Shown one piece after another: positions 35,660 to 62,417 of a DNA stretch of 64,000 nt; position 1 is the first letter of the stretch, and each line of letters opens with the position of its first letter. The translations under genes were made by a program, and so were the position numbers. Source of the stretch: Azolla caroliniana (taxonomy: Eukaryota > Plantae > Polypodiophyta); NCBI GenBank assembly GCA_043228905.1, contig JBHGNT010000007.1, forward strand, positions 14,136,001-14,200,000, in the 5' to 3' direction. The notes beneath the pieces were generated by a model. The model had not been told where the DNA came from. It saw only the letters and a program-made list of their open reading frames with translations, and made no database searches.

Positions 35660-38648
35660 CCGACCCAATTATGTCGAAACCGGAGACGACACTACGCATC
35701 CGATTCGGCACATTGGCAAACTTATATTAAAAATGTCTTGCATGTATCAACTATCACGAAGAATTTGGTCTTCATCGGCCAAATTGTAGAGCAAGGAATG
35801 CAAGTACGATTTAATCAAGGCAGTTGCTTCATCGAAAAAGAGGGCCAACTCATTGCTTGCGGACGAAGAGAGGGTTGAATGTTCATTCTCGACTCACACG
35901 AGATGAAATCGGCCATGTTCGAAAAGGACATGAAAGCCGATTTTGACATAGAGTTATGGCACAAGCGGATTGGCCATATCAACCTCCAAAAGCTCAAGGC
36001 AATGCAATCGAAAGGAGTCGTCATTGGGCTCCCGACATTCACGGAGAAAGAGATTGAAGGCGTGTGTGCCGCTTGCCAATTCGGCAAGCAACATCGGCAC
36101 CCATTTCCGAAGGAGTGGAACGTGAGCAAAGGTGTACTCGACGTAATTCATTCTGATGTATGGGGTCCGGCTCAGATGGCTACATTCGGCGGATGCTGAT
36201 ACTACGTGGCCTTGATCGACGACTTCTCTAGGCACACCTGGATCTACCCCATGCGACAAAAGAGCGAAGTGTTCAGACACTTCCAAAAGTTTAAGAATGA
36301 AGTTGAGAAAGCCACGGGCCGACATGTACGATGTCTTTGGTCAGATGGAGGCAAGGAGTACTTCTCCAACGAATTTTCGGCGTTTCTACGGAAAGATGGA
36401 ATATGGCGAGAGTTTTCGTGTCGACTTACGCCACAACAAAATGGAGTGGCCGAACGAAAGAATCGGCACATCCTCGAAGTAGCATGGGCCATGATGAACG
36501 AAAAGCATGTGCCGAAGTTGTACTGGGTAGAAGCGGCTAACACGGCCGTATATCTCATGAATCGGTGTACGACATGGGGTGTGCATGAACTTACTCCGCA
36601 CGAGAAGTTTTTCGGAAAGGAGCCGGACCCATCACATGTTCGGAAATTCGGCTCCATTGCGTACGTGCACATCCCCGATGGGAAGCGACAAAAGCTTGAC
36701 CCAAAGTCGAAGAAATGTATCCTTGTAGGATACTCATTGGAGCAAAAGGGGTACAAGTGCTACAACCCCTCAACTCAAAAATCTCGAGTAAGTTGAGACG
36801 TCGTTTTCGACGAGTCCGTATCCTGGTACGCACCAGAGACAACTTCGACTTCGATTCCGCTCGACCCGGATTCCACCGAAATAGAGATAGAAGCCAAAGA
36901 TCGACTCACGCGTATGTTCGAAGAAAGCCCAATTACGACAAGGCTTAGTGGGCCACAAGAGCCCCCAAGCGATCAAAGCACATCTCGGCCGAGTCTGAAG
37001 CTGGACAAAGGGAAGGCAAAAATGCCGGAGTATGAAGACGATCATTTCGACGGTATTGAATCGACTCACTCCGTCAATAGTGAGTTTGAAGGCCTTGAGA
37101 TCCGGAAAAATGGACCGGAGAAAGCCGTAGTATCTACAAACGAGAAGCTCCGCCAATCCACCCATGAAAAGAACCCCGTAAGCCAATTCGGCTACAACGA
37201 TTATATGGCATACCATTACGCCTTTATGATGAAGGTAGCGAAAGTACAAGAGCTTGAAACCTTTTCCGAAGCCGCGAGGGCCCGCGATGGATCGAAGCAA
37301 TGACTGAGGAGATGCGTGCACTACGCAAGAATGAGACATGGGATCTCGTTCCCCACTCACCGCACATGAAGGCAATTAGTTGCAAATGGATCTACAAGGT
37401 GAAGTATAATGCCGACGGCTCCGTAAACTGTTACAAAGCTCAACTCATAGAGAAAGGATACACTTAGACGCATGGAGTCGACTATGAAGAGACATTTTCC
37501 CCCATGGCAAAGATGACGACGGTGCGGACCGTAATTGCACTCGCAACGGCGAAAGGGTGGCACCTCCACGACATGGACGTCACGGATGCTTTCCTCCAAG
37601 GCGAATTAGAAGAGGAGGTGTACATAGTACAACCTCTCAACTTCGAATCATGCATTCATCCGAAAGCCGTGTGCCGACTCAAGAGGCCACTCTATGGCCT
37701 CAAGCAAGCACCGCGTGCTTGGCATTCGAAGAATATGCAATATCTTCATAAAATCGGATTTTGAATGTCAAAATCCGACAACTCCCTCTACATACGCCAC
37801 GACTCTAGAAGCCTACTTGTCATCATCCTCTACTTGGATGATTTGGTTATTGGAGGGAAGCATTTAGTCGACATCAACAAGGTGAAGTCCCTCCTCTGCA
37901 ACAAACTCGAGATGACGAACATGAAGGAGCTTCATTACTTCCTAGGCATTGAGGTAATTCGGACTCCGGCCGGCATTATGATCTCTCAACGGCACTACAT
38001 CCTCAACTTGTTATACAAGTTTGGGATGACTGAGTGCAAATCGGTCGCTACGCCTCTTGATTGAAACCTCAAACTAGATGCCGACTCCCGCATAGACGAG
38101 TGCGAGCTGACCCAATATCGTCAACTGATCGGCAGCCTCATCTATCTCACGATCACTCGATCCGACCTTAGCTATCCAGTCAGACTCCTGAGCCAATTCA
38201 TGCAAACTCCGTGAGATATCCATTTCGATTGCGTCAAGTGAGTATTACGATACGTGAGCAACACAATGGATTATGATGTTCTATACACATCAGCCACACC
38301 AATACGACTCCAAGGGTACACATACGCGGACTGGGCAGGCTACAAAGCTGATTGACGATCGACCTCCAGATTTATCTTCTTGCTCGGTAGCGGAGCAATA
38401 TCTTGGAGTAGTAAGAAGCAGCCTACTGTTGCACTTTTGAGTACGGAGGCCGAATACAAGGGCGCAACTGTAGCTACATGTGAAGCCATATGGCTTAAGA
38501 GGATTTTTAAGGATCTGGGCGTCCCCATCAAGGATTAGACTCCCATTTATTGTGACAACATGAGCAATATATATTTGGCTCGGAACCCGGTGTTCCATGC
38601 ACGCACAAAGCACATCGAAGTGCACTATCACTTCATTCGAGAGCGCGT

Positions 38649-41600
38649 TGTCGTGAAGATTTCGGGCCATGGTGAGAAACTGGGGAATATCGGAGGAATC
38701 GGCGGGGTGGAGCATGTGCACTCACCCTTGTACAAATCGTGTAAATGATAGGGGCGCCATCATGGCGCCAGACAGTAGTTAATTCGGGACAGAGGATCCC
38801 ATGTAATAAGGGATTTATCCCACATTGTTACGCATCCCTCTCCTTGTTCTATAAAAGGAAGGGAGCGCCCTTTGTAAAGGGGTTGCCCATTTTGAGTTAG
38901 GAGGGTATATCGTTAGAGTTAGGGTTTCACCTTGGTAGTTTTCTTTCTTTCTTTCTTCTTCTTCTTCTTCGTCATCATGTGGGTTGAGAGTTCGTGTCTA
39001 TTTAGGGTTTGCTTATGTTCGGTCCCCTGTGCAAGACCCCGCTCGGCGCGACGAGCCTGAGAACTCCCCGATCGGCGGCTTGGCAGTAGACTGCTGTTGT
39101 AACCTAACCTACCTAGGTTCGGCTCGAAACTGGGGCTGTATCTTTTCCCTTGTAATATATATACTCATATATGTTTGTGCATATTGATGTATTTGGCAGT
39201 GTCAGGAGCATAGCCCCTTTGTTTCCTGTGCATAAGAGTCGGTGTCGCGTGCATGCTCTTTCTCTCTCCTTCTCTCTCTTTCTCTCTCTCTCTCTCTCTC
39301 GTGTTTGGTTGCCTCTGGGATGTGTCCGGAGTCGGTTTCTCGGTATCCCTTCCTCCCTAGTCCGAGACCCCTGTGGTCCCGCCCTTTTTGACACGCATGT
39401 GCGTAATAACGCGACATTATTTGGTGAACTCGACGTGAAAGGGCGGCAAGGGAGAATGGAGTTGGAAGAAGACGACTTCACCCAACTTTTTGTCGAAGCA
39501 GTGAGGGAGTTTGGACGAGTAACAACAAGGAGAGAGACGACGTAGCTAGTTGTTGAGCAAGTGGTCGAAAGAGTCGGTCGTTTCAACGGGGACAACCTCC
39601 CATTCTACTTGGAAGCCTACAACGCGGAAATGGAGGAGCGAGGCGTAGACGAGGTGTTGAGGCTGGGGTTCTTCTGTTGGGTCGTCACCGTCTGCATGCA
39701 CATGGAAGTGAAGGAGCTGTGAGAAGCTCATAGTTCATGGGAGGCCTTCGAAGAGGCGCTCCTGCAGGCATATGGAGGACGGTGGAAGAGCCGGGGACGA
39801 CACGGCTTCGACCAGTAGGTGGCATCAGTGAAGACCCACCGGGGCGCAACGAAGGCATTCCGAGAGTTTGAGCGACGGCTTGCTCGGCTCCTGGAGCGGG
39901 AGCAAGGTATGGTGGGGGTGGACAAAGCCCTGTTGTTCATTAGGTCGATCGACTGAGCGGAACGGGAGGCCATCGGGATTGAGCTCGAAGACGAGGACGA
40001 AGTGAATGGCCTTATAGAGGACTGGTCGAAGGTCGGAAGGGTATGCCGACGGCTGGATGACGATCGAGCCGAGAAGGCTAGGAGGAAGGCGCGTGATGGC
40101 GCGCCATCACAACGGGAAGAGGTCGAACGGCAAAGAGAGTCGGCAAGGCTCGACTTCAGGGCCAAGATTGCGAAGGCGTATGAAGATCTCGAGGCAATGC
40201 TCGAAGAAGAGGAAAGATCAAGGCCGCAAGCCGACGCCGAGGAGACGGACTTGCCCCACGAGATGGCAGAAGATCGGTATGACAATAGCACGGGAGAGGG
40301 TGCGGAACAAAACACCCTCTCGACTTGCGGAGATAGAACGGCCGAGGACAAGGCCGATATACCGATCGAAGAATCGAAACATTGGGGCCGGCGGTTTCGG
40401 GAACGTCGGCCCGAAACTCTGGACATTGGAGAAGCATGCCCAGGCAGGGCTTGCGTGATCGGGAAGAAAACGGCCACCGACCACAAGGAGCCGGTGGCTA
40501 CGGACAAGGGTGTAAATAGGATGAGTGATTCTACGCGTCTTCTCATGCTTTCTCCCGAGATGATGGCAGTCGGACCTGAGTGCCCACGTGAGTCCCAAGA
40601 GGAGGAAGGCGGCGGCGTGAGACCGAGAATCTCCGGTGAGATGATATGAGGAAGGAATGGACAAGTGCCCTCGGAACCGATTTCGAAGAACTCAACATTC
40701 GGGCCCTTACGCCCACGTGAGACCGAGGAGATGGATGACGGTACCGAGGAGTCTTGGCATGATGCCAACGAAGATGGAGGGGAAATGGCCCACGAGAAGG
40801 TCGATGAAGGGACCAAGAAATGACTTGACCTGGGACCGAACCGCGTGGCACTCCGATTCGGGTGGGGCACGATCCGGTCGTGGATTGTTCAACCGGGGCT
40901 AGAATTGGCATGAAGGTGCCAATACGGGAGAGGGTGCGGAACGAACCACCCTCTTTTACATGGGGAGAAAGACCGACCGGGAAAACGTCGGGAATCAAAA
41001 GGAAGGTGATCAAGGGTTCAGAATGAGCCCGGTAGGATCGTCATCAGAGTCGAAACTCTGGACATTGGAGAATCAAGCCCAAGCGGGGCTTGGTTGATCA
41101 CAGAGCGGATGCTATCCATCCGCTAAAAGGATCGGTGTCCTGGGACGAGTTGTCGGAAGACGTTACGAAATCGGTTACCCACATCTTGTCCGGGGACTTC
41201 GGCAGTTTGGCCGACGTGGCAACGTGAGACCGAAAGAGATGGAAGATGGAGGCGGGAACGCAGCTAGGAGAGCAACGACAAGTCCAGGAGAAGTACAAGG
41301 GACGAAGAGGAGAGCGAAGACCAGTCCTATGGGTCACCTCACACCGGATCTAGAGACCGACGGTCAGCATCGAATCCAACGTAAGACCAGGATACTGACG
41401 GTGGAGGCAGCAGAACGGGACCCGACAATCCAGAGAATGACGAAGGGTCTTGGACAAGAACCGGGTGGAGCGGACTTCTGGATAACCGATCCGGAAGAGG
41501 GGAGAGAGCAGGCCTACAAAGAGGCTGGGAACATGGTACGTCAGTACCACGGGAGAGGGTGTGGAGCGTGCCACCCTCTCGACTTGCAGACAAGGACGAC

Positions 41601-43470
41601 CCGGGATAAGGGTAAGAGATACGACGAGCCAGAGGAGGATCCTTCACACCGGTTCTAGAGACCCCGATGGTCGGTCCAAGAGCCGGCGTGAGACCTAGAG
41701 TGATGAACGATGCGGGCGAGGGGATGAAGGCAAAGGGCTGCAGATGGGCAGTCTACGGAGATCCTCACACCGATCTGGCGGTTGGCCTGAGAGCCAGCGT
41801 GAGTTCTATAGGAGAGATCGGTGGCGACAGGAGAATGTGTTCAATAGAAGAGGTCAGACTACTGCGAGAAGAAAACGGCAAGCGGTGCTGCCGCGACCTT
41901 ACACACACCGGTTCTAGACACTCCAGCGATCGGCCCGAGAGCTGGCGTGAGACCTAGAGTAAGGAACGGTGGTGGCGGCAAGGTGAGCAACCGAAGGCAG
42001 AAGGGGAGGTCCCACGAGATCCTCCCACCGATCCGGTAGTCGGCCTGAGTGCCGGCGTGAGCCCTATAGGAAAGGACGGTGGCGGCAGGTGAATGTGATC
42101 GGACGACGAAGGTATAGTGGCAAGGAGGTATCGGGCTGACGAGGCGGCCACAAACCAAAACTGGACCTTCCAGCAAGGTCGATGGAAGGAAGGGGGAAGA
42201 AGAAAAGGAAAACCGGTCCTACGGGATCCTAACACCAATCCGGAGACACCTGTAGTTCGAGCCGACATGGCAATGTGAGACCGAGTGAGAAGGGTGGTGG
42301 CGGTAGGAAACAGGAACCGGCGATGTAGGAAGTGCAGATGGGCGATCCTACGACGATCCTCACAACCGATCCGGAGACTCCAGCAATCGGCGACGAGAGC
42401 CGGCGTGAGACCTAGAGAGAAGGACGGTGGCAGCAGTAGAACGTGATCGAACGATGGAAAGCAGAGCGAAAGGAGCTATGAGGCCGGCAATGTGGCCACG
42501 AACCAGATACAGTTCCGACGGGTAGAGTTGGCAAGACAAAGGTCGGAAGCGCTTGGTATGAGAGTCAGTGACCCAACAAAATGGAGGCCCGAGAAGGATT
42601 CTTCACACATGCCCGGAGACCCCGACTGTTCGGCCGACGTGGCAATGTGAGACCGAGGGTAATGGAAGATGGCGGCAAGGGGATGAAGGCGGCAACAGGA
42701 GAAGCACTGACCAGCCAAGGCATTATGTGAACGAAGGAGGCCATTGTGAGCCGGTACGCGGCAAGGGTGATCTTCCGGTAAGCTGTCGGGGGACACACCG
42801 GTTAAGGAGCGGTGTGCCGAGCCGGAAGGGGCGCACTCGAAAGCGGAACGGAAGACGTGCGTGTGGCCATCAAGGGCCAAAGCGAAGCACGAGTACGGGA
42901 CGGTGTTTGGCAGAGGCGGTGCCAAACAAGGAAGGCAGAAGACGGTACACGGAGGTGCCGGGAACGAGAACATGTGTGCACGTAAACAGACTACGCGGGA
43001 CGGAGACCGAAAACATGATCAAGGGCTGGATGAGGATCCTCCACGCCCTCTTCAGAGATCTCAGCGGCTCAGTCGGAGTGGCAATGACTATCGTGGTGTG
43101 CCAAACCCGAAGATAACAAGCTGGTGGGGGCGAGGGGATGCCAGTAAGCGGAAGGCTCCATACCGGTGGCAGAAGCGCAAGACGAAAGTGGCCAAGCGGA
43201 CTACTACAGGGTGTTCCTCGGATGTGGAGGACACCAGTATGCGGAGGAGCGGCGATGCACGATCTAGCCGGGCGAGGGCCGACAATGCGTGCATAGGACG
43301 AAACCGGGGTTCGGCACGGGTGGAGCCGAACATGGGAAGGGGAATGCGCGGCGTGCGAAGGTGCCGGAGCGGGAACACCGGCGGGGAGATAGGTTGCCGG
43401 TTCAGGTGATCTCGCATAGAAGGCCAAAGAGGGAACCAACCAATCGTTGTAGCAACAACTTGCACAACTC
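38649..43470 (+). mobile_element. tRNA-Trp-primed Ty3/gypsy-group element F, gag-only (no pol seen), 3' end missing
   Basis: LTR 38649-39416 (TGTCGTGAAG...GCGACA), PBS tggtgaactcgacgtgaa. Degenerate gag homologous to G and H (RFNGDN, GVDKALLFIRSID, IELEDED...NGLIEDW), then about 3 kb of repeat-rich sequence without PR/RT/INT motifs. Right boundary approximate. Confidence 0.8.
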
Positions 43471-44230
43471 ATATCAAGAGAAGTCGGATATATCCCACTT
43501 TAGGATATTCAGCTCAATCGCGTACGTACATATTCCTGATGAGAAGTGGTAGAAGCTCAATCCTAAGTCGGAGAGATGTATCCTCTTAGAGTACTCGCTC
43601 AAACATTTGGGGTATATGTTATTCAACCCCTCTACCAAGAAGGTAGGAGTGAGTAGGGATGTCATATTCGTTGAATCGGCATCCTAGTACATAGTTGAAT
43701 CAACCCCAACCGATCCAATCGAAACTAATTTCCACATAGACTCGGGGGAGGATGATCGACTAAGGCTCACAATAGAGGAAAGTCCAATCTTATCTAGGTT
43801 GAGTGGACCACAGGAGCCCCTGAGTGACCAAAGCACGTCCTGGCCGAGTCTGAAGCAGGACAAAGGAAAGGCCAAAATGCATGAGTACAACGACTCAGAT
43901 GAAAACGAATTGGATCACTCACCCAATAGTGAGTATGTTGGATTGGATGTGCCAATCATGAGGACATTTGGAGCCGAGAAAGTGCTCAGAAAGACAAGCG
44001 AACATCCATGTTGCTCCACCCGAGAGAAGAACATAGTTAGCCGATTCGGTTACAATAATTACATGGCATATCATTATGCATTCATGATGAAGGTGGTGAT
44101 AGTCCAAGAACCGGAAACTTTTTCTGAAGCCGCGAAGGACCGATGATGGGTCGAAGCAATGAATGAGGAGATGCAAGCACTCTCCAAAAATGAGACATGT
44201 GATCTTGTTCCCTCTTCACCCCATCAAAAG
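43471..44230 (+). mobile_element. Ty1/copia internal fragment L (integrase C-terminus to RT start), C-like family
   Basis: IAYVHIPDEK...SRFGYNNYMAYHYAFMMKV...EPETFSEAAKD, near-paralogous to 36650-37350. Confidence 0.85.
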
Positions 44231-47658: not shown

Positions 47659-48095
47659 TGTCGTGAAAAATCCGTCACTACGTGCGGATCGTGAGGCGGA
47701 ACCGCCGGGGTTCTGGACTAGAAGGATTCAAAGTTTGCACTAGCTTTAGCAAGAAAGGATTTAAGATAGATTGAGAGAGATTGATATGGAGAGAGAGAGA
47801 TTGAGATAAAGATTGAACGTTTGACTTTAGATTTGAGAGACAAGATACATTAAGATAACTTGATTTATTATTATTATTATTAATTTCTTCCCACTTTCTT
47901 CATTAGCCCCATCTTGCTTGACCTCCATTCTTTTATAGATCCCCCCATGAATATGATGCATGGGAGGGTGCAAGACATGCATGTAACACATGAAATGCAT
48001 GCGATGCATGTTTGCCATGTCACTCATCCAAGCTCTCATGTATGAGATTTAACATATGAAAAATACAATAAAAATATAACTTTAAAGTCATGACT

Positions 48096-48152
48096 TAGCT
48101 TAGTGGTAAGTCATGTGGCTCTTATGTAGGAGGTGCAAGGTTCAAATTCTTA
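48096..48152 (+). promoter_or_regulatory. tRNA-like A-box/B-box module in LTR J
   Basis: TAGCTTAGTGG...GGTTCAAATTC with the same 44-nt spacing as in H. Confidence 0.6.
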
Positions 48153-49124
48153 CTTACACCATTGTAAACACAAAATTTTACAAGGCTTTAGTCTTGTTTT
48201 TACAAATGTTTAACTACATATTACATCTTCAGTTGACATCCAATGAACTGATGGAACCGTTGTCGAGATATTACGCAAGTGCGTGTGGAAACGAGGCGGG
48301 ACCGCGGGGGTCTCGAACCAAAGAGCAAGCGAGGGAGGAGAAAGAGAGAAAACCGGCTACGCAGGACCGAGGATACACAGGGACACGGCCCTTCAGCACA
48401 GAGAACGCGAACAGACACCGACACAGACAGATGCGAATGACTAAATATGTATATTAACAAAATGGCTAACACGACTACAACCCTCGATGGGGCACAGGTT
48501 GGCTACAACCGAACAGGCCGGCGAACAGATGCCGATGCCTGTTCGCTTCGACGCGCAAAGGGGGCAGCAGGTCGGAGGTGCTGCCGAAAGCACTCGGGCG
48601 TTCCTCGAAACAGCGCGAGCCTCCTCGGAACCCTGCACAGAAAAGCTATGGAGCTCAAGAAGGAAGGAAACAGAGAGAGAAGCGTCCAGAAACGGTCCGG
48701 CAGCACTTCCTCCTCTCTGCGCGAGATGCCTGCAACAGCTCTTTCCTGCTCCTTATATAGGCCGACGAGCAGGCCGTCATGTCAACTTTATTCCCTGTCC
48801 CTTTCGAACAGGGATTCGCTCCGTTCTTCACGCATCCGCGTAGTTACGCCGCCGACTCGTACAGTTCCTTAGCTCGCGCGCGCGACCGAAAAGACTGTTC
48901 GCGCGGTCTTTGTCTCCACTTGTGTTAGGGCCCGTTCCTGCCGATTATCCTCCTAATTCGCTTCTATGTACAACTTGGAGCGTGCGCGCGTGAAGAACCG
49001 GTTCCCACGCCTTGGTGCGCCGATTCCGCTTATGGACGGTTTTCTTCACGACATCCGCCCCCACCTAACCGCGCATCCTCCGGTATGCGCCAAGAGAGTT
49101 GGGACGGAGAAAACCGGCCCGTCT

Positions 49125-52100
49125 TCATTCCTCGCCCGTTGGTTCTTCCTCGTTTTCGGATCGTTCGTCACTGCTGACTAGGAGTGTCGGGTCTGGCTCG
49201 TCGTCGTGTCGCTTCTTGAACGCCTTGATCCGCTTCCCTGCAACCGGTATCGCCATTCTCGTGCCGTCGAGTTCCGCCAGGTGATATGTCCCGTTGTCAT
49301 TGGCGCTCCGTACCACGTAAGGCCCGAACCACCTTCGTGCGAACTTCCGTGTAGCTCGGTGCTGGTTGTCGAGGCTGCTGTCGTAGACGAGCACCCAGTC
49401 ACCTTCCTCGATTTTCTTCGGTCGGGGCCGGTGCGTTCGGTCGAACCTGGCTTTGTTCTTTGTCCTCGCCACCCGGAGCTTCTCCGCAGCCAGTTCCACG
49501 TCCTCCGGTCTCCGCTCGAGCTGTCGTATACGCGCGGCCAACAACTCCTCCCGGCTCATCTCGTCCCTCCAGTCGACCGTTGCCCACGAGGAGATCGTCT
49601 GTTCCATCGGCATGATCGGCTTCTGGCCGAACATGAGCTCCGTCGGCATGTACCCGGTTACCGAACTGTGCGTGGTCCGGTCTGCCCACAAAGCATAAGG
49701 TAGCAGCCGCGGCCAGTTACCGACTCGGCCTCCGCATGCCCGAACCAACGCCTTGGCGATCGGCCCGTGTCCGCGCTCCACCTTTCCATTCGCCTCCGGA
49801 TTGTACGCAGTGGTGAGCGAGAGCTTAACTCCCAGCCGGTCGAACAGCTCCGCGGCTTCTTCGGCGTCCAACTCCCCTCGGTCAGCCACGATCTTCCCGA
49901 TGCACCCGTACCGGCATATCACGTCCTCGATTAGGAACCGACATACGGCCGCGGTCGTTTTGTTCGGAAGGACCCGGCCTTCCACCTGGTTCGTCAGATC
50001 CTCCCGCGCTAGGACCAAGTACCGCATCTGTCCTACCCCCATTGGCATCGTCACCAGATCTACCATCCATTTGAAGTGGATGGTCGGAGGGTACGTAGGG
50101 TGAAGCTCGTCCCGGTGTCGGACCACGGAGTGCATCTGACAGCTCTCGCAAGTTGTCACGAATCGATGCACGTCCCGGTACAGTCCCGGCCACCAGTACT
50201 TCTCCTTTATCTTCTCGAACGTGGCCCAAGTTCCACGGTGTCCGGCCCAAGGGCTGTCGTGGTAGGCCGTCAGCAGCTCCTCCTGTTCCTCCTTCATCGC
50301 CACCACCCGGAGCGGAGCGCCGTCCCTCTTCTTCGGGTGCTTCCATAGATAGCCATCCCGGAGAAAGAACCGGTACGCTTTCTTCCGGATCCGGTTGGCC
50401 TCGTCTTTCATCCATGACGCATCCGGCGCCATTGTCCTCAAGAACCCGCCGATCTGCAGCCACTCCCCGTCGTACTTGCTCGCGTCGAAGTCGTTAAGCG
50501 CCGGAGTGCTCGTCCCGTCGGTTGTTACGTATGCTGCCTCGAAGAAGTCCACGCCGACCTCTTCGTCCTCCGAAACCATGCCGCCCTTGTCATCGAACCT
50601 CGCCCTCGAAAGCATGTCGGCCATGGCGTTGTCTTTCCCGGAAATGTGTCGTATTTCTGGGTCCAGGGACTTGATGTACGCTATCCACCTGAGCATTGCC
50701 AGGTCCGGCGTCGCGCATCCGGAAACGATGCCGAGAATCGGCATGCAATCCGTCTCTATGATTACCTCTGTCCCGATCAGATAGTCCTTGTCGGCCTTCA
50801 CCGCCGAAACGATACCCCAGAGTTCGCGTTTAACCTGGGCGTATCCTCGCTGCCGCTCACTGAGGACCTTCGCGCCGAATCGGATCGGAAACCGATTGCC
50901 GTCCTCGTCTTCTTGGTTGACAACCCACCCGATTCCGGTCGGACTCGTGTCAACCGTTATGTACACTGGGGTGCCCTTCCTGTAGACGGCCTTTCGGAGC
51001 GCCGGTGCTGCCGAAAGAGCCTCCTTCAGCTTCCGGACCGACTCCGTGTGCTTGTCTAGCCATTCGAATCTTCGCCCTTTCTTCAATAATCCGTACAGCG
51101 GCTCCGCGACGTGCGCGTAATGCGGGATCCATATGTGGTAGAAGGCGCATGCTCCCAAGAATCTTCGTACTTCCGTGACCGAGCTGCAATCAGGCTTCAT
51201 CGCGGAGATGGCTTCTACCTTTGCCGGAGACGGTTTCCGGCCATATGGTCCACATAAATGTCTCCCCCGAGAAGGTGAGCCTCGCATCCTCTAGCTTTTG
51301 CAGCACCTTCTCGCAGTCGTCGATGTGCGTCATCACGAATCGCCGGCATCCGTCTGGCCCGATCGTCTCGTCCTTCTCTTCTACCGGGCATCCCTTGATC
51401 GGGATGTCGTCTAGAAACGGCATGGTGATGTCCGGGATGCAGTCCCTCAGCACCTTGTTCATTGCATTCACCATGTGGGCCACTGAGTTGGTCCCTCCTT
51501 GCGGCAGCGTACACATCCGCACTAGGCCGAGGGGAGTTCGCATCGTCGTAATGTCTCTGCTCTCCACGGCTAGCTGGAACTGGTCGTACCCTGAGTATAG
51601 ATCACCGACCGAGTAAATCGACCTTCCGGCGAAGGCCTCCGCGAACTCGTCTATGGTCGGTCCGATCCCTGCGTTCCGAATGGTCACTCTGTTGACCGGC
51701 TGCAGGTCCTGAATGAAGCGCAACGATCCGTTTTTCTTTGGTACGGTAAACCATCGGTTTGAATATGGGGCGCTCGACGGCTCGAGAATGCCCATATCAA
51801 CTTTCTGCTTCAACAGCTCCATCAACTTCGGGATGTGAGCTCTCGGAACCGGAATTGGCTTGAGATTCCACGGTACATGCGGCACCGTGAATATCACCAT
51901 TGGCTCTACGATCGTCGGGTCTACGCACCCGATTTCCTCCGGTGAGAATGCGAAGGCTTTCCCGTGCCTTCCGAGCATTCTCCAAAACCGGTCTTCCTCC
52001 ACCGGCAGTAGGAACCCGCCCCCACCGATCTTCAGTTCGCGGAGCGTCTCGTTGGTGAAGGTGTGTCCTATGCAGGCCGGATCTCGTAAGCTGGGGTCCG

Positions 52101-52575
52101 ATGCAACCCCTTTGATTCGGGATTCGCTGCCCTCCGGTAAGGGCGCCGCAACTGGCCTCACCTTCCGGTCCACAACCTTGTACTTGGTGCTAACTCGGGC
52201 CGTCCGTTCCGACTCGAGCCCTCGACCGAAGTCCGCGATGACTTCGTACATTTCTTCGGAACACGCCGGTATCGTCCGGTCTTCGTTAAGGCCTTCTTCG
52301 ACTACCTTCCCCAGCATCCCCAAGGTGTCGTCGAAGGAGACTGCCTCCACGGCTCCGTCGATTTCTTCGTCAGGGCCGAGAACTCCGCACGCCCGAAGTC
52401 TCCCCTCCGTCTTTGTTTTCTCTCGGCCGGCGATGCCGACCATCGTACATGCTCCGCTGTCGGAGAAGCAAAATTTCCTACCTATTGTACACGGTTTTAT
52501 CGTACAGATGTGGGGTTTTCCCGGAGCATCCGGACTGTCGCGGCCCCACGCCTTGGCAGTCCTCTCTAAAAATCC
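49125..52575 (-). pseudogene. pol (RT-RNase H-integrase) of element G, one internal deletion/frameshift near 51260
   Basis: RT IQDLQPVN, DLYSGYDQ, LPQG, FLDD; RNase H; integrase HHCC (H...GHRG...CESC), DDE core and GPY motif; no chromodomain. Confidence 0.92.
52510..52575 (-). promoter_or_regulatory. Predicted -1 programmed ribosomal frameshift signal (slippery G GAU UUU plus pseudoknot)
   Basis: Heptamer 52575-52569 directly before the gag-PR stop, 6-nt spacer, stem 1 GGACUG/CAGUCC, loop GUGGGG pairing with downstream CCCCAC. The -1 frame is open into RT. Confidence 0.75.
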
Positions 52576-53696
52576 TCTCGGTTTTCGGAACCGAGGGAGT
52601 CGCGGTTACGTTCGTGGTTCGGCCGTACCGTCAGAAACTGGACCGAATGGCGCCCGTCTTGGCTTTTGACCCTCGCGTAGGCCAAACCATTGTCCAGCAC
52701 CTTGGTCTCCATTCGTGCCGCCGTGATGTACGGCTCTCCCAGTATGACCGGATGCGAAGACGTCTCCTGCACGAAGAAGTGCTGGTCAATCTCGACGTCG
52801 CCGATCTTGACTCGCACATTCGGACAGGCCCCGTGCAGTTCCTCGGTGGCGCGCGTTGCTGCCCTTATTTTCCACCCGTGCTTGGTGTTGATCGGCCATT
52901 TGCCCTTCTTATAGAAGTCCATGGACATCAAATTGATCTCCGATCCGTGGTCCACCAAAGCTATCACCGGTTCCTGGACATCGCCGATCTTCACCGGGGT
53001 TTCCGTGGTCGCTCGGGCCCAGTGTGGTCTCGAATAGTGGCTTTCCGCCCACTCGTCCCCCAGCGCCATGTCGTCTAGGTGCGTCGTCCGCACTTCCACC
53101 GGTTTTTCCGGTTCTGTCTCCGTTGACAGCCTCTTCCGTTGTCGTGCCTTTCGGCTCCGGATCGTTTGCGTGAGTCGGGTGGGAACCACTGGGGTTTTGG
53201 ACTAGGAGAAAGAAGAATATGAGATGAGGCTAGTAATGGATAGGTATAAAGAGTTATAAGATAAGAATCTCGTGAATCCCACGAGTTTAGTATATTTAGT
53301 CAATATTTAGGTAGTAAGAGAGAATTATTTTTAGCAAATTCGTGAATCCCACGAATATTTTAGATTGATTGATCATTATAGAAAAATAATCAACAAAAAC
53401 TACAATGTGCTCCCCATCCTTATATAGTGATGGGAGAGACTAAGCATAGCTACATGCTTTTTCTAATATGTTCATGCACACTAAATGTGCATGTGATGCT
53501 TTTCTAATCCTTGCTTTGATTTGCTAAATATAGTGCTCATGCACGCTAGATGTGCATGAGTCACTTTTTAGTTGCTTGCGTTTTTCTATAAAATATTCAC
53601 GCACTCTAAATATACATGATTTACCTTTTAATAAAGGTAGGCGCAAATAAAGCACTTATAATTATTAAATCTATTTATAGAACACTAAAGATAAGG

Positions 53697-53750
53697 TAGC
53701 ATAATGGTAAAGTTGGGGTTTGGCTACGTGGAGGTACAAGGTTCAAATCT
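53697..53750 (+). promoter_or_regulatory. tRNA-like A-box/B-box module in H LTR (second copy 56339-56392)
   Basis: TAGCATAATGG fits TRGCNNARYGG; GGTTCAAATCT fits the B box; spacing 44 nt, as in tRNA genes. Confidence 0.6.
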
Positions 53751-53815
53751 TGCCCTATGCACGTGATAAATATCTTGATATTCTTATTTTATTTATTTAT
53801 ATGTAATTAAATCGG

Positions 53816-55744
53816 TTATATTATTTTTACTTTTTCACGTAGTGTACGAAATACACTACGACACTCGCCCCCTCCGAACCCGCACATCCTCCGGTATGTG
53901 CCGAAGTTGCCGATGCTCGTTGTCTCCCCTTCATCCTCCGTTTGTCCCGCTATGTCAACTTTGTCTCTCCATTTTGAGTAGACCCATTCTTTCCACCCGA
54001 ACCATTGTCGCCATCCGATCCACCATATTCTTTGTTCTCTCTCGTCATATTCTTGGCCCTTGTCATTCGTGGTAGTGTCTTTTACTGGCCTCTTTGTTGT
54101 CTTCATCAACCTTGACTTTTTTCCGGATCGCTCTCGTCCGATCGACTTTCGGTTTGATCGGCTTCCGATCGGATTCGTATTCGGCCGAATCGGAATCGGT
54201 TGTTCGCTTTCGATTGAGTCGGTCTCCTTCCGGCCCGGTTTCGATCTATCGGTTTTGGTTTCGGTTGGCTTTCTTTTCCTCGTTTTCACCGGCCTCGACC
54301 GGTCCCACCTCCGATTGAGTCGGATTAGCTTCTTTCCGGATCCGTCTCGTCCGATTGGCTTTCGGCTAGGTTGGCTTCCATCCATATTCGCGTTCGGCCA
54401 AGTCAGACTCGGTCGATCGGTTTTGACCGAGTCGACCCCTTTTCGGGTCGGCTTTCTTTCGGATCGGAATCCCGTCCGGATCACCTTCCATCCAAACCGG
54501 CTTCCGACTTTACCTTTCTTGCTGCCACCTCCCGTCTCTCCGGTCTCACGTTGGTTCTCGGACACAACTGCCGAAGTCTCTAGAATTAGTGGGTAGGAAT
54601 CCTCGGTATTATCATCCTCCATTGTTTCACCCATAGCCATATTCTCGGCTATCTCTCCATCGTATGCATCGACTTCGACCTTTGTTTTCTCTCCGCCACC
54701 TTCCGTCTCTTCGGTCTCACGTTGCCTTTCGAATGCAACCGCCGGAGTCTCTAGAATTAGTGGTGGGGAAGTCTCGATATGGCCATCCGTCGTTGATTCG
54801 TCCATAGTCACCTTCAATTCGATGTCATCTTTCATGGTGACCTCCTCAATCAAGTCCTCCTTGCTCTCTTTCACTGCATCAATTATGCAAACATCAATTA
54901 TGCTTACCCCTTTTTCACCCGATGTTTCGGACACTTGTATTCCGAAATCTTCTTCTACACTTGGGTTATCGGCCTTATCCTTTGTCGTTGTTCTTTCGCA
55001 AGACAAGAGGGTAGCTTGTTTTACACCCTCTTCCGTCGGACCATCATGTTGTATTTCGGCCTTCATATCGGCTCCATCGTTTGTCTTCAATCGACCATCC
55101 TTCATTGGCCATGTCGTTGACAAGATTCTCATCTTCCTCTCATCATGTCTCCGGCATACCCTTTGGACTTCGGCCCAATCTTCAGTAAGACCATTTGTAC
55201 CTTCATCGTCTTCGAGTTCAATCCCGATGTCCTTCCTTTCTTTTCGATCGATCGATTTTACGAACATTAGGACTTTATCCTCCCCCACCAATCGTTGTTC
55301 CCGCTCCGAGAGTCGAGCAAGACGATGCTCGAACTCTAGGAATGCTTGTGTTGCACTTTGGTGGGTCTTCTCCGATGCCACCCATTCATCGAACTCTCGC
55401 CGATCTCGTCCCTTCGGTCTATCGTAATCATATGCCTCTCGTAAAGCTCCTTCAAAGGACCCCCATGTTGGGTTTTGTTGTTGTATCTTGTAGATTCTTT
55501 CTTGTAACTCATCCGTGGCTACCCGATTGAAGGATGTCACTTGCAATCCTTCTGGTATCCCACATCGTATCATCTCCGCCTTGTAGTCACGTAGATAGCG
55601 TGACACATCGTTTCCGTTGAATTGTCCGTTTCGTTGTACGAGCCGCTTTACTACCGCCGTGATCTCCGACATCGCTCGTTGTTCTTGTAGCATCCGTTCG
55701 AACATCATCATCATCATGTTCATCGCCTCTTGTTGATTCTCCAT
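53816..55744 (-). CDS. Intact Gag-like ORF of element H (about 642 aa from the first ATG) with long acidic/basic tail
   Basis: N-terminal about 220 aa align by eye with G Gag (FNGNDVSRYL / FDGKDATRYL, VLMFVKSID / VLLFVKSVD, GLTEDW / GLTTDW). No stops; the stop codon lies inside the 3' LTR. Confidence 0.8.
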   Translation of the reverse strand: MENQQEAMNMMMMMFERMLQEQRAMSEITAVVKRLVQRNGQFNGNDVSRYLRDYKAEMIRCGIPEGLQVTSFNRVATDELQERIYKIQQQNPTWGSFEGALREAYDYDRPKGRDRREFDEWVASEKTHQSATQAFLEFEHRLARLSEREQRLVGEDKVLMFVKSIDRKERKDIGIELEDDEGTNGLTEDWAEVQRVCRRHDERKMRILSTTWPMKDGRLKTNDGADMKAEIQHDGPTEEGVKQATLLSCERTTTKDKADNPSVEEDFGIQVSETSGEKGVSIIDVCIIDAVKESKEDLIEEVTMKDDIELKVTMDESTTDGHIETSPPLILETPAVAFERQRETEETEGGGEKTKVEVDAYDGEIAENMAMGETMEDDNTEDSYPLILETSAVVSENQRETGETGGGSKKGKVGSRFGWKVIRTGFRSERKPTRKGVDSVKTDRPSLTWPNANMDGSQPSRKPIGRDGSGKKLIRLNRRWDRSRPVKTRKRKPTETKTDRSKPGRKETDSIESEQPIPIRPNTNPIGSRSNRKSIGRERSGKKSRLMKTTKRPVKDTTTNDKGQEYDEREQRIWWIGWRQWFGWKEWVYSKWRDKVDIAGQTEDEGETTSIGNFGTYRRMCGFGGGECRSVFRTLREKVKII

Positions 55745-58700
55745 CCCCTTGCCACCCGTCTTCACGTCGGGTTCACCAACTGTGTCGTGCCTTTCGGCTC
55801 CGGATCGTTGCGTGAGTCAGGTGGGAACCGCTGGGGTTTTGGACTAGGAGAAAGAAGAATATGAGATGAGGCTAGTAATGGATAGGTATAAAGAGTTATA
55901 AGATAAGAATCTCGTGAATCCCACGAGTTTAGTATATTTAGTCAATATTTAGGTAGTAAGAGAGAATTATTTTTAGCAAATTCGTGAATCCCACGAATAT
56001 TTTAGATTGATTGATCATTATAGAAAAATAATCAACAAAAACTACAACGTGCTCCCCATCCTTATATAGTGATGGGAGAGACTAAGCATAGCTACATGCT
56101 TTTTCTAATATGTTCATGCACACTAAATGTGCATGTGATGCTTTTCTAATCCTTGCTTTGATTTGCTAAATATAGTGCTCATGCACGCTAGATGTGCATG
56201 AGTCACTTTTTAGTTGCTTGCGTTTTTCTATAAAATATTCACGCACTCTAAATATACATGATTTACCTTTTAATAAAGGTAGGCGCAAATAAAGCACTTA
56301 TAATTATTAAATCTATTTATAGAACACTAAAGATAAGGTAGCATAATGGTAAAGTTGGGGTTTGGCTACGTGGAGGTACAAGGTTCAAATCTTGCCCTAT
56401 GCACGTGATAAATATCTTGATATTCTTATTTTATTTATTTATATGTAATTAAATCGGTTATATTATTTTTACTTTTTCACGTAGTGTACGAAATACACTA
56501 CGACACCGTTTCACCAAGTCCACGATGGAGTCGTGGAACTCCTTCTTGGCGATTCCCAGCACCTCTCGTAACGACAACTCCACCTTGCTGTCGAGGATCC
56601 GTTCCTCTAGGACCTTTCGTAAGTCCGTGGTCCTTTCTATCTCCGTCCCCAGACGGTACCCGCCCTTCTGGGGTTTACCTTGCGTACCGGCACCGCCGGC
56701 TTCGTCCCGTCGTGGCCCGGACCGGGTCTCGTATCGTTGTGAGGGCCCGGTCGTCCCGGGTTTCCCCACCCGCTTCTCTTCTACCAGAGCCTCGTAGTTC
56801 TGGCAAGCGGCTTCCACGAAGCCCGTCTTTTCCTCGACCGGGTCGCTCCACCCGGTCATCTCCCGTACCCGTTTCTCCGCACGGTCCGATTCCTCCCTTT
56901 TAAGCCTTGCACCGGCAAGGCCTTCCAGCATCGTCGGCCAGAATCCGGCTTTGCTTTCCCTTCGGGCCTCGCCGCCCCCGACTCGAATGCCGGCCGACGC
57001 CGAGTAGTGGACGGTTTCCGCGTGTCGGGCCGCCGCCTCTTCCATCAACCTTTTCATACCACCTCGCCCGTCGTTTCGGCTCAGGGCCCTTCGGGTGTCG
57101 CTGGCATGCACCCGTCCTTCCCACAGGTACACCACCCTGTTCCTCAGCGCCTCCGCGAAGTCGCCACAGTCCTTCCGAATGTGGCCGACTTCATCGCACC
57201 ACATGCACCTGTTTCCTGCCGCCGGCCGTCGGTCACGAGCCGGTTCGCCACCTTCCCTTCGGGCTTGCGCGATTTGGAGGTCCTTTATCGCCCTCGTCAA
57301 TTCCTCCAGCGCCGCTCCTCCGGTTGAGCCTCTGACTACGCCGGTCGAAGCCGAACCGGTTTCCAACCACTCTCGGGTCTCTTCCTTTCGCACCTGTGGC
57401 GCTGGTTCGAGCTTCCTTGCTGCGACCGAGCCCGACCCGGTTGCCCCGTTATCCGCCCATTCTCGCCGTTTGTCGAAACGGCCACAGACTTTCTTGACAG
57501 CCGCCCAGTCGGTAGTGAGCCCGTCTTCGGTTTCAAGCAAGAGGCCCACTTGCTCCCGATCCCGCTCGTCGACCGACTTGACAAACAGCAAGACCCGGCT
57601 CGTGTCCAGGATGGTTCGGTCGAGCGCCGAAAGGCGCGCAAAGTTTTCCTCGAACTCCCGGAGGAGTGCCGACGCGTTTCTTCCCTTCCCCGGGGACTCC
57701 ACCCATTCCATGAACCTTCGCTTCAAAAGCCGGAGCGCGTCGTCCAGCCCGTATCTCTCTAGGAGCCGACCTTCGAACTCCTCCCAGGTACGGCTCTCCG
57801 CCCGCACCTCGAGCACCTCCGCATGGATGCTCGGCATCGCCACTCGGGGAAATCCGGCAAGACGCCTTTCTTCCGGAATGTCCCGCATCAGCATCTCTGC
57901 ACCGTAGGACGCCAAATACCTCGTGGCATCCTTCCCATCGAACCGGCTGATCGTGCCGACGACCGCCTCAATAGCTTTGTCGAGGGCACCGGTGCCCTCG
58001 CGCGCGTTTACAATCCGATCCACGGCCGAAGCCATGGCCTCTGCAAGATCCGACCCCCTCATCTTCTGCTCTTCTGCCGCCTCCTTCACGTCGGGTTCAC
58101 CAAAGATGTCGAGATATTACGCAAGTGCGTGTGGAAACGAGGCGGGACCGCGGGGGTCTCGAACCAAAGAGCAAGCGAGGGAGGAGAAAGAGAGAAAACC
58201 GGCTACGCAGGACCGGGGATACACAGGGACACGGCCCTTCAGCACGGAGAACGCGAACAGACACCGACACAGACAGATGCGAATGACTAAATATGTATAT
58301 TAACAAAATGGCTAACACGACTACAACCCTCGATGGGGCACAGGTTGGCTACAACCGAACAGGCCGGCAAACAGATGCCGATGCCTGTTCGCTTCGACGC
58401 GCAAAGGGGGCAGCAGGTCGGAGGTGCTGCCGGAAGCACTCGGGCGTTCCTCGAAACAGCGCGAGCCTCCTCAGAACCCTACACAGAAAAGCTATGGAGC
58501 TCAAGAAGGAAGGAAACAGAGAGAGAAGCGTCCAGAAACGGTCCGGCAGCACTTCCTCCTCTCTGCGCGAGATGCCTGCAACAGCTCTTTCCTGCTCCTT
58601 ATATAGGCCGACGAGCAGGCCGTCATGTCAACTTTATTCCCTGTCCCTTTCGAACAGGGATCCGCTCCGTTCTTCACGCATCCGCGTAGTTACGCCGCCG

Positions 58701-59005
58701 ACTCGTACAGTTCCTTAGCTCGCGCGCGCGACCGAAAAGACTGTTCGCGCGGTCTTTGTCTCCACTTGTGTTAGGGCCCGTTCCTGCCGATTATCCTCCT
58801 AATTTGCTTCTATGTACAACTTGGAGCGTGCGCGCGTGAAGAACCGGTTCCCACGCCTTGGTGCGCCGATTCTGCTTATGGACGGTTTTCTTCACGACAC
58901 CGTTAGACAATTTTGTTCGTTTCACACCGAAAATCTTCAAGATACCGTGCCTTGCGATCAACCTATTCAACCGACCCGACACTGGAAACCGGCAAGAAAA
59001 GACAT

Positions 59006-60152
59006 TGTCGTGATGTTTCTAACACGCAGTGTGAAACCACCCTCGAAAAGAAGCCAAATATCAATTTAAATAAACTAGTATTGTGAAGTCAACTTTATTG
59101 GTAGGCAAAATACTTTTTCATTTTGCCAAAGATAATTCCTTATAAATAAAAGGTCAAAGGATTGAACCTTACAATAAATAATGATGAATATTAAGTTAGA
59201 GGCGGTTTTCAAAAGTAGAGAAAAAGATGGAGAGAAAAAAAAAACACGCGTGGATATGATGAGTATGGTAGAGAAATAAGCTCATAATTTCCTCGTCAGA
59301 TGTCCAAATTAGAAAATAAAATATGCATAAGAAAGCTAACCCAAAGAGCTTTCCAAGAATATCTTGCATGTGAAATTTGGGGCTAGAAAACAGAAATAAT
59401 GAGGAAAAGAAAAGTTGACTCATATAGACAAGCTTTTTTTTAGGGGAAAAAGGCAATCGATCCTAAACCTATAAATAAGAGCCTATTCTAGTGAAGAAGT
59501 GGGGGAGGGAGAAGGAACACGGAAGCTCTAGTCAATTGGAAGGCAAAAGAAGAAGGATCAACAACATCGAGAGGCATCATCAACAAAGAATCACCTTCTT
59601 CTATATTCCACTCTCTTCTTTCCTCCACCTCTCATCCCCCATTCCTTTATAAACAAACAATCCTTCATATTCACATCCAACCTATTGTAACATGATTCTT
59701 ATATTATAAAAGAATCGATTATTTTGATATAAACTAATGCTTTCTTTCATCTACTTGTCTTATGTGTAAATCTTGATTGTGTTGTGCGTGTGAGCTCTAA
59801 TTCCTTCCAGTCCATAACCCCAACAGTTCCGCCTCACAATCCGCGCATAGTGACAGGTATTTCACAACATAATTAAGTGGTGAACCTGACGCGAAGAGGT
59901 GGTAGGAAGGATTCAAGTGCTTGCAATAGAAGATTAGAAGATGGCTTCTTCGACAAACACCCAAGCTGATGAAGTGGCGAAGTTGGTGGCTATTGTCGAG
60001 CGAATGATGAGAGCCCGAGATAATGATTCAAGATTAGACAAGGCCATCAATTGGACTGTTGAGATAGCGGGCCAATTTGGTGGAAGAAATATTACAAATA
60101 TCCTCGCCATATACAAGACAGAGATGCAACAACGAGATGTCATCGAAGAGAA
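59006..60152 (+). mobile_element. tRNA-Trp-group element I (5' LTR and gag start, truncated)
   Basis: LTR 59006-59869 (TGTCGTGA...TCACAACA), TATA at about 59470, decayed PBS tggtgaacctgacgcgaa at 59878. gag MASSTNTQ...RLDKAI...QFGGRNITNIL homologous to G Gag. Confidence 0.85.
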
Positions 60153-61193
60153 AAGGGGTGTGGAGATCGGTCGGCATTCCGTCATGCCAAACTTGTACAA
60201 CATATTCAGCACATAGTGTCTTTGTGAGAGCAATATGTGGTCAGGGGTCTGGATCACCTCGATCCCAAGAAAATAATGAAGGTCCCCCAAGTCCTTCATT
60301 TCAAATGCGTTCGATAACTAGGACTTCACTCTACCAATTTCAACGAGTCTGGGTTCGGTGATGACTAAATCATCTACATACTGGATGAACAGTGAAGAGT
60401 CGGACTTTGAGGCTGCAAACCCCATCTTACACAATTGGTGCATGATCTTCACATTCCAAGCTCGGGGGGCTTGGTTCAGACTGTAAAGCGACTTCTTGAG
60501 TTGGCACACTGCCGACTTGTTCATCTCCAATTGGAAACTAGGGGGTTGGATCATATAGACCCGTTCTTCAAGGTCACCTTGAAGAAATGCATTCTTCACG
60601 TCCATTTGGTGAAGGTGCCACCCCCTTGCTACAACAACTGCCAGCACCACACGAACCGTCGTCATCTTCGCTACCAAAGTGAAGGTCTCGTCGTAGTCGA
60701 TTTCGTGGGTCTGTGCGTATCCCTTTGCCACTAACGGAGCCTTGTACTGGTTGACTGAAGCATCGGCATTGTACTTCACCGTATATACCCACTTACAACC
60801 GATTGGTTTACACTGTCGAGGAGGGTCAACCAGGTCCCAAGTGTCATTGGCATCGAGTGCCCGCATTTCTTCTTCCATAGAAGCACGCCAATTTGCGTCT
60901 TTCGCTACTTCTACATAGCTCTCTGGCTCACACACTTCTGTCATCTTGGTCATGTACACATAGTGATGTGCCATGTACTCATTGTATCCGTACCATTTTA
61001 CAAGGTTCTTTTGGCAGGTTGACCGACACAACTTTTCGTGAGCCGGTTTGAGGCCTTTCTTGGCCGGTTCAGATTTCGTTTCTAAAGATCCGACTTCGTT
61101 CTTCCGAAGTCAGAATCCCTCTGATCTTACTCTACATTGTCAGTGTCGTATTCTGACATCTTTCTCTTCCCCTTCTCTTTGCGCATGAACCGT

Positions 61194-61986
61194 TGTTGCG
61201 TTGTTACGCGCGTGCGTGTCGAAAGGGCGGGACCACGGGGGTCTCGAACGAGGGAGAAAGGGATGCCGAGAAAACCGACTCCGGGCGCGACCCGGACGCA
61301 ACTGAACACAAGAGAGAGAGAGAGAGAGAAGAGCGAGAGAGAGCATGCACGCGACACCGACTCTTATACACACAGGAAATAAGGAAAAGAAACGCACCCG
61401 ACACTAGCAGAGACACAAATATGCTCAACCCGTTATATATATGATTACAAGAGTGAGTTACAACTCCGGCTCCGAGCTGGACTGAGGTAGGCTAGGTCAC
61501 ATCAGCAGTTTGCCGCCAAGCCGCCGTCGGGGAGCTCTCGGGCTCGTCGTGCTGAGCGGGGTCTTGCACAGGAGGCCGAGTAGAAGTAAACCCCCACAGA
61601 ACATACAAGTTCTTCACCGGGCTAAAACCCTAAACGGACACGAAGGGGCTGAAGAAGAAGAGGAAGAAGAAAAAACGAAACCCTAAACGAAATAGGGTGA
61701 AGACCAAAGTGGAAACCCTAAGGGAACAAGAATAAGATGAAGAGGAAGAACTCTACCAAACCCTAGACCTAAGTGGTATACCCTCCTAACTCAAAATGGG
61801 CAACCCTTCATAAGTGACCCCTCCCTTCCTTTTATAGCCCAAGGAGGGAGGGACCTTACAATGTGGGATAAAATTTCCCCTCTTATTTCTATACATCATT
61901 TCCTAGGAAACATGGGCACATGTTGTACACCACCGATTTGCCCATTCCACCCCGGTTTCACACCGTAGCCGGAAATCTTCACGACA
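61194..61986 (-). mobile_element. Solo LTR of the F family inserted in K
   Basis: Reverse complement starts TGTCGTGAAGATTT and ends CGCAACA, similar to the F LTR. 4-bp TSD CCGT on both sides; K reading PRRRFM is restored on removal. Confidence 0.92.
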
Positions 61987-62101
61987 CCGTCTCCTCGGTT
62001 TCTTGTGTGGGGAGAGCACGGTAGAGTCTCCACTATTCTCCGGTTCTTTATCTGACTGGTCATTCCGACATAGCCGCTCAATTGGCCCACTTAGTCGGAA
62101 T

Positions 62102-62417
62102 GAGATAAGACTCTCATCTAGAGTACCAAATCCTTCTTCATATTCTACCTGAACCTCTCTAGGTTCACTAGCCTCATCCTCCGGAATCAGGTCTTCGTCG
62201 GGAGTTGGAGTCACGAGAGAGTACCATGATTCCGACTCATCAAACTCAACATCTTGACTGAGATAAGACTCTCATCTAGAATACCAAATCCTTCTTCATA
62301 TTCTACCTGAACCTCTCCAGGTTCACTAGCCTCATCCTCCGGAATCGGGTCTTCGTCGGGAGTTGGAGTCGCGAGAGAGTACCATGATGCCGACTCATCA
62401 AACTCGACATCTTGACT
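62102..62417. repeat. 158-bp tandem duplication inside element K
   Basis: gagataagactctcatctaga...catcttgact present twice (starts 62102 and 62260). Confidence 0.9.

What the first reader, a model, noticed from the sequence alone, without database searches (positions are those of the whole stretch)
38645..61990. tRNA-Trp-primed Ty3/gypsy group inserts at a CG-centred 4-bp target (NCGT)
Seen: three independent complete insertions (G, H, solo LTR at 61194) all duplicate the same 4 bp, CCGT. The unpaired junctions fit too: F left GCGT, J left ACGC (rc GCGT), J right CCGT, and I left ACAT (one CpG transition from ACGT). So 6 of 7 sites have a central CG and the seventh is a plausible decayed one. 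The copia and chromovirus neighbours instead make unrelated 5-bp TSDs (CTAGA, ATTCG). Known: most plant LTR elements make 5-bp TSDs with weak preference; CG-type 4-bp targeting is known for some insect errantiviruses such as ZAM. Inference: this integrase, which lacks a chromodomain, may read (methyl-)CpG directly. That would steer insertions into CG-rich methylated transposons and away from the CG-poor gene space, explaining the nesting.
Basis: partly seen in the sequence, partly recalled or inferred. Interest (0 to 1): 0.85.

Follow-up and report, generated by a model that had tools for sequence, protein, structure and literature searches.

The report
CG-targeting Phygy-like plant retrotransposons
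A group of jumping genes in this plant genome inserts almost only at CG dinucleotides and duplicates 4 bases, a habit already described for the Phygy group of mosses, to which these elements likely belong; the idea that they read DNA methylation remains untested.

Summary
G (48261-58899), H (53140-56505) and a solo LTR (61194-61986) each sit between two CCGT copies. Empty-site comparisons confirm 4 bp for H and the solo LTR. Outside the window, 19 of 23 distinct flanks have a central CG and the other 4 are TG/CA, against 3.6% background. The motif is V-CG-B (no T first, no A last; ACGT commonest), not NCGT: only 9 of 19 end in T. This is not new. REXdb lists Phygy with a 4-bp NCGN duplication, a tRNA-Trp primer site and no chromodomain. 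G matches those traits; its named relatives are from liverworts and a fern. I could not place it on a tree with real Phygy sequences. The likeliest mechanism is direct sequence and shape readout by a plain integrase. CG supply alone favours transposon DNA over gene DNA 5.7-fold here. Methyl-CpG reading is neither shown nor excluded (about 12%).

The parts
38645..38648 (+). F left flank GCGT (single junction, inside a copia RNase H region)
38649..39416 (+). F 5' LTR; primer site follows at 39422; degenerate gag-like interior, truncated near 43470
   Evidence: 77% like the solo LTR over 418 bp
47659..58944 (-). J: LTR of the I-type family, split by G; flanks ACGC (47655-58) and CCGT (58945-48) do not match
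   Evidence: ends homologous to I's 3' end and to an LTR in L020
48257..48260 (+). G left target duplication CCGT
48261..58899 (-). G: Ty3/gypsy element, LTRs 48261-49053 and 58107-58899 (98.9% alike), about 7.3 kb without H; gag, protease, RT, RNase H, integrase; interrupted by H and by a frame break near the end of RT
49125..51290 (-). RNase H + integrase frame (P0001): HHCC, D411-D470-E505, GPY/F-type C-terminal domain, short acidic tail; no chromodomain, no extra RNase H
53136..53139 (+). H left target duplication CCGT
53140..56505 (-). H: non-autonomous element nested in G, LTRs 99.4% alike, same primer site at 55762-55778, gag-like frame only
56506..56509 (+). H right target duplication CCGT
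58086..58102 (-). G primer-binding site (tRNA-Trp type; the tRNA identity is recalled, not from a call)
58900..58903 (+). G right target duplication CCGT
59002..59005 (+). I left flank ACAT (CA-type, likely a decayed CG)
59006..60156 (+). I: 5' LTR 59006-59869, degenerate primer site at 59878, truncated interior
61190..61990 (-). Solo LTR 61194-61986 with CCGT on both sides, inside a copia pol
   Evidence: (a paralogous copia near 20760 has one copy of the 4-mer position)

Best explanation
These are several related non-chromovirus Ty3/gypsy families, likely of the Phygy lineage, that duplicate 4 bases centred on CG, and their integrase likely picks the site by reading DNA sequence and bendability directly rather than a methyl mark. 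Shown: 4-bp duplication, CG centre, avoidance of T first and A last, a plain integrase with no added reader domain. Inferred: a 4-bp stagger needs a sharp bend at a flexible central step; base contacts from the integrase narrow that choice to CG; the non-autonomous H borrows a G-type integrase; TG/CA junctions are CG sites that decayed after insertion; nesting follows from the higher supply of CG sites in transposon DNA.
For: 19 of 23 distinct outside flanks are CG-centred against 3.6% background (p 3e-24); first letter T 0 of 23, last letter A 0 of 23. Two more flanks from contigs read CCGT and ACGT. Empty sites show one copy of the 4-mer for H (35 contigs in X5, 12 in X8) and for the solo LTR. 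CG already stands at the homologous uninterrupted site in 2 of 2 cases checked. REXdb Phygy: 4 bp (NCGN), tRNA-Trp 81%, no extra domain. Retroviruses with 4-bp duplications favour a central pyrimidine-purine step and disfavour T and A at the same two outer positions (PMC4422553). Bacterially made ZAM integrase binds a CGCGCG oligonucleotide directly (PMC2527525). The model is a plain integrase, best matches PFV and Ty3. CG decay dominates here: 5 of 9 differences between G's LTRs are CG to TG/CA. V-CG-B sites are 5.7 times denser in the transposon part than in the gene part.
Against: No Phygy reference sequence could be obtained and no listed relative was named Physcomitrium, so lineage rests on structural traits. 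G without H (7269 bp) is below the Phygy range of 7656-9968. Bendability alone does not explain the result: CG is only 15% of pyrimidine-purine steps in the flanks, so base-specific contacts must be assumed, and none was shown. No methylation data were seen. The TG/CA cases also fit an enzyme that accepts T as a 5-methyl-C mimic. The three solo-like outside LTRs (L004, L012, L032) have flanks that do not pair, so the outside set gives single junctions only. All 34 loci were found with one LTR-end motif covering the G, F and solo families and may come from one host. In the ZAM paper the CGCGCG site alone was not sufficient for cleavage.
Confidence: 0.75

Rival explanations
1. The integrase reads methylated CG (5mCpG on both strands), so insertions are drawn to methylated DNA without a chromodomain.
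For: Near-strict CG centre; no TA among 23 flanks although TA is twice as common as CG in the flanks. All four exceptions are TG/CA (p 4e-4). The integrase has lineage-specific conserved positions near the predicted target-DNA surface: an acidic residue at the PFV Ala188 position in 121 of 121 near relatives, and a C-terminal loop with Q in 110 and H in 108 of 121.
Against: No methyl-binding or chromo domain by Pfam or fold. ZAM shows CG-type binding by a bacterially made integrase to synthetic DNA. CG supply alone predicts the nesting. Nothing here measures methylation.
Confidence: 0.12
2. Same behaviour, but a separate lineage that is not Phygy: a sister clade or convergent CG targeting in non-seed plants.
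For: No Physcomitrium-named protein among those listed (120 of 181; 74 of 74; 20 clusters looked up). Size slightly below the Phygy range. REXdb called Phygy species-specific.
Against: The joint match of 4 bp, NCGN, Trp-type primer site, no aRH, no chromodomain and no extra ORF fits only the Phygy row among 15 Ty3/gypsy rows. Phygy has since been reported in a liverwort (PMC12885004), and G's named relatives are liverwort and fern proteins.
Confidence: 0.1
3. The CG centre is an accident of CG-rich neighbourhoods, or the duplication is really 5 bp with trimmed LTR ends.
For: The transposon part of the window is CG-rich (o/e about 1).
Against: Background is 3.6-6.7% against 83% observed; CG is hit even in CG-poor flanks; empty sites show four bases; five-base pairs mismatch.
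Confidence: 0.01

Closest known systems
Phygy, non-chromovirus Ty3/gypsy clade of Physcomitrium patens (REXdb; Neumann et al. 2019, PMC6317226)
   Same: 4-bp duplication with NCGN preference, tRNA-Trp primer site (81% of 186), no chromodomain, no aRH, no extra ORF.
   Different: Probably another host (inferred: GC-rich elements, no Physcomitrium-named relative listed); G slightly shorter; the motif here resolves to V-CG-B; a non-autonomous partner (H) shares it.
TatI (REXdb)
   Same: 4-bp duplication, tRNA-Trp primer site.
   Different: TatI carries an extra archaeal-type RNase H in all 4 elements; G shows none. No NCGN preference listed.
Selgy (REXdb)
   Same: Non-chromovirus, 4-bp duplication, no extra domain.
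   Different: tRNA-Ala primer site, 4.4-6.7 kb, no NCGN preference listed.
ZAM errantivirus of Drosophila (PMC2527525)
   Same: CG-rich target (CGCGCg) bound by the integrase itself.
   Different: Longer consensus, needs a second nearby site; retrovirus-like element of insects; G has no room for an envelope gene after integrase.
Retroviral intasomes with 4-bp stagger (PFV, MoMLV; PMC4422553)
   Same: Central pyrimidine-purine step; T and A disfavoured at the outer positions; closest folds.
   Different: Their preference is weak (63% enrichment of YR); here it is near-strict and CG-specific, and the Ala188-equivalent residue is acidic rather than small and neutral.

Membership tests
Phygy (REXdb) | RT/RH/INT group with REXdb Phygy sequences (the criterion that defines the clade) | not testable with these tools
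   REXdb FASTA too large to read; no Physcomitrium-named protein returned. Tree places G in a clade of 120 integrases with six named Riccia proteins, support 0.985.
Phygy (REXdb) | 4-bp target duplication | tested here: met
   3 of 3 complete insertions; empty sites for 2 of them
Phygy (REXdb) | NCGN target preference | tested here: met
   6 of 7 window sites; 19 of 23 outside flanks, remainder TG/CA
Phygy (REXdb) | tRNA-Trp primer-binding site | tested here: inconclusive
   One conserved site behind the 5' LTR of F, G, H, I and in 9 of 34 loci. That it matches tRNA-Trp is recalled; no tRNA gene was found to check it.
Phygy (REXdb) | No chromodomain, no aRH, no extra ORF | tested here: met
   Pfam on all G frames; model ends in a beta domain plus short tail; the window's chromovirus does hit Chromo, as a positive control
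Phygy (REXdb) | Length 7.7-10.0 kb (descriptive; the paper calls size a weak classifier) | tested here: inconclusive
   7269 bp without H, 5% below the range; one copy only
TatI | Extra archaeal-type RNase H | tested here: not met
   No such Pfam hit in G at E 0.1 or 0.001, nor among the listed domains of near relatives
Selgy | tRNA-Ala primer site and 4.4-6.7 kb length | tested here: not met
   G is 7.3 kb; primer site is of the Trp type (recalled identity)
Chromoviruses (Tcn1, Galadriel and others) | Chromodomain after integrase | tested here: not met
Errantiviruses (ZAM) | Envelope gene after pol | tested here: not met
   Integrase stop at 49125 lies about 60 bases from the purine tract and 3' LTR

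The most novel reading that the evidence does not exclude
The Phygy-type integrase is a methyl-CpG reader: its conserved acidic core residue and C-terminal loop recognise symmetrically methylated CG, giving a chromodomain-free route into silenced DNA, and each old duplication stays a target so that copies stack end to end.
Probability: 0.12. Interest if true: 0.8.

Novelty: new member of a known kind. Interest (0 to 1): 0.3.

Why it matters
It extends a target rule published for one moss to what is probably another non-seed plant and sharpens it from NCGN to V-CG-B. It also names integrase positions that can be mutated to ask how a near-strict CG preference arises. That is useful to transposon specialists and possibly for sequence-biased insertion tools, but the central observation has been in print since 2019. 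It would matter much more if methylation were what the enzyme reads.

Tried and rejected
No whole genome was held, so no genome-wide logo. No relative in viral contigs. A short-stretch lay gave only two single-contig flanks. The protein Atlas gave no answer. Searches for a tRNA gene matching the primer site found nothing. Earlier findings of the scan: none. PMC7466625 (P. patens transposons) has no passage on target sites or Phygy; PMC6839031 (GingerRoot) concerns a 6-bp DNA transposon. Rejected: five-base duplication; CCGT as part of the LTR; NCGT as the motif; J as an intact solo LTR with a matching pair; TatI, Selgy, chromovirus and errantivirus membership.
Full report
Observation. The window has a gene-like part (1-10 kb, GC 33-39%, CG o/e 0.35) and a nest of LTR retrotransposons (CG o/e 0.98). 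G spans 48261-58899 on the minus strand with LTRs 98.9% alike; H spans 53140-56505 inside G with LTRs 99.4% alike; a solo LTR spans 61194-61986. Each has CCGT on both sides and the five-base readings mismatch. The inner LTR junctions lead to a primer site or purine tract, so the four bases are host DNA. F (GCGT), J (ACGC, CCGT) and I (ACAT) are single junctions. J is an LTR of the I family split by G, and its flanks join unrelated DNA.

Length of the duplication. A paralogous copia near 20760 aligns to both flanks of the solo LTR with a four-base overlap. Contigs of other G-family copies run from 56506 straight into the letters left of H's left duplication, with one copy of the 4-mer: 35 contigs in run X5 and 12 in run X8 (4 of 20 listed runs were laid, and only 24 of about 5200 loose-end rows were shown).

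Wider sample. No genome was held. A motif for the LTR 3' end found 34 metagenome loci. Nine lead to the primer site, one ends at the contig end and one is a duplicate, leaving 23 distinct flanks. Nineteen have a central CG, four have TG or CA, none has anything else; CG background in those flanks is 3.6% (p 3e-24). First letter: A 15, C 6, G 2, T 0. Last letter: T 12, G 6, C 5, A 0. Against the background of CG sites the missing T and A have p 4e-4 and 1.5e-3. The motif is therefore V-CG-B with ACGT commonest (8 of 23). Only 9 of 19 CG sites end in T and 3 of 19 are CCGT/ACGG. Six unambiguous 5' flanks in the same loci are also CG-centred, one of them ending in A (CCGA); a seventh (CCGG) is ambiguous. 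Two single-contig flanks read CCGT and ACGT. Where outside insertions fell into a G-like pol, the uninterrupted window copy already has CG at that place (2 of 2). Limits: one search motif, possibly one host, and the three solo-like LTRs there have non-matching flanks, probably from collapsed assemblies.

What the elements are. G encodes gag (weak DUF4100 hit), an aspartic protease, RT, RNase H and integrase, with no chromodomain and no second RNase H; it is interrupted by H and by a frame break near the end of RT. H has a gag-like frame and no pol hit, so it is non-autonomous. Named relatives of G's RNase H-integrase are Riccia sorocarpa and R. fluitans proteins (about 45-66% identity) and one Adiantum nelumboides protein (55%); 120 of 181 hits were listed and all 74, where identity drops to 36% or less outside this group. 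A FastTree tree of 245 integrases (302 passed the coverage filter; 57 redundant cluster members dropped; the Adiantum protein failed the filter) puts G in a clade of 120 with six named Riccia proteins, support 0.985. The host is probably a non-seed land plant; an attempt to name its lineage failed.

What is known. Neumann et al. 2019 (PMC6317226; passages, section 9, Additional file 5 read whole; files 1 and 3 too large to read) state that Phygy elements prefer NCGN, and list Phygy as 186 elements, 4 bp, NCGN, tRNA-Trp 81%, 7.7-10.0 kb, no extra domain. No other Ty3/gypsy row has this combination. Jedlicka et al. 2019 (PMC6911290; passages) report GC-rich centres in 4-bp duplications and Phygy nested in Tcn1. 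A liverwort genome paper reports Phygy, enriched at centromeres (PMC12885004; two passages). The defining test, a tree with REXdb Phygy sequences, could not be run; the unread files hold those sequences and per-element duplications. The tRNA-Trp identity of the primer site is recalled.

Mechanism. The integrase model (mean pLDDT 86) is a zinc-finger, catalytic core and beta-rich C-terminal domain with a short disordered tail, best matched by PFV and Ty3 integrases. Serrao et al. 2015 (PMC4422553; abstract, section 6, passages) show that 4-bp integrases favour a flexible central pyrimidine-purine step, disfavour T and A at the two outer positions, and touch bases through PFV Ala188 and Arg329. 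That accounts for the V and B and for the step type. It does not account for CG over TA, TG and CA, since CG is only 15% of such steps in the flanks; base-specific contacts are inferred. Candidates are the Ala188-equivalent position, acidic in 121 of 121 near relatives, and a conserved C-terminal loop. ZAM integrase made in bacteria binds a CGCGCG oligonucleotide, though that site alone is not enough for cleavage (PMC2527525; passages). The TG/CA exceptions fit decay: 5 of 77 CG sites already differ between G's two LTRs, 5 of 9 differences in all.

Methyl reading. Nothing here measures methylation. Nesting needs no methyl reader, because V-CG-B sites are 5.7 times denser in the transposon part than in the gene part of this window. 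Insertions also occur in CG-poor DNA (L002, L017), and the gene part shows TG/CA excess (o/e 1.29), a sign of past methylation. The hypothesis is not excluded: TA is never used and T can mimic 5-methyl-C (recalled). One paper search on these terms (listing only, 30 of 46 shown) showed no title on methyl-CpG reading by an LTR integrase; that is a thin basis for saying it is not in print.

Verdict. A real feature, already described for Phygy; here a likely new member in another host with a sharper motif. Interest 0.3; methyl-reader case 12%, interest 0.8 if true.

Noticed in passing
L013 near 1103-1117 (minus strand) and L020 near 2705-2719: Two LTR ends abut through a single ACGT (tail to head in L013, head to head in L020), as if an old duplication was re-used as a target.
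   Followed up: partly
window 49125-51290, P0001 residue 473 and 640-654: The position equivalent to PFV Ala188 / HIV Ser119 is Glu or Asp in 121 of 121 near relatives, whereas retroviruses have small neutral residues there; a C-terminal loop is also conserved.
   Followed up: partly
window 1-10000: Intron-rich gene region with CG o/e 0.35 and TG/CA o/e 1.29, against 0.98 and 1.0 in the transposon nest. First exon near 10497 (minus strand) resembles NOP53 by recall; Pfam gave no hit.
   Followed up: partly
window 24380-30027: Copia element whose 5-bp duplication reads ATTCG on the left and ATTCA on the right, itself a likely CG decay.
   Followed up: yes
window 12121-18387: Chromovirus-type element with chromodomain, Met-type primer site, perfect CTAGA duplication and LTRs ending in TA rather than CA.
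   Followed up: partly
window 58945-59005: A 61-bp stretch between J and I that matches nothing else in the window; J's flanks join copia gag to this stretch, suggesting recombination between elements or a deletion.
   Followed up: partly
window 56476-56505 and 53834-53863: H's LTR 5' end contains a short perfect-looking inverted repeat just inside the terminus.
   Followed up: no
proteins P0244-P0300: A second tier of mostly unnamed pol proteins at 34-41% identity lies next to this clade; their hosts and target sites are unknown.
   Followed up: no
window 62098-62417: A 162-bp tandem duplication (96% alike) inside a copia pol.
   Followed up: no
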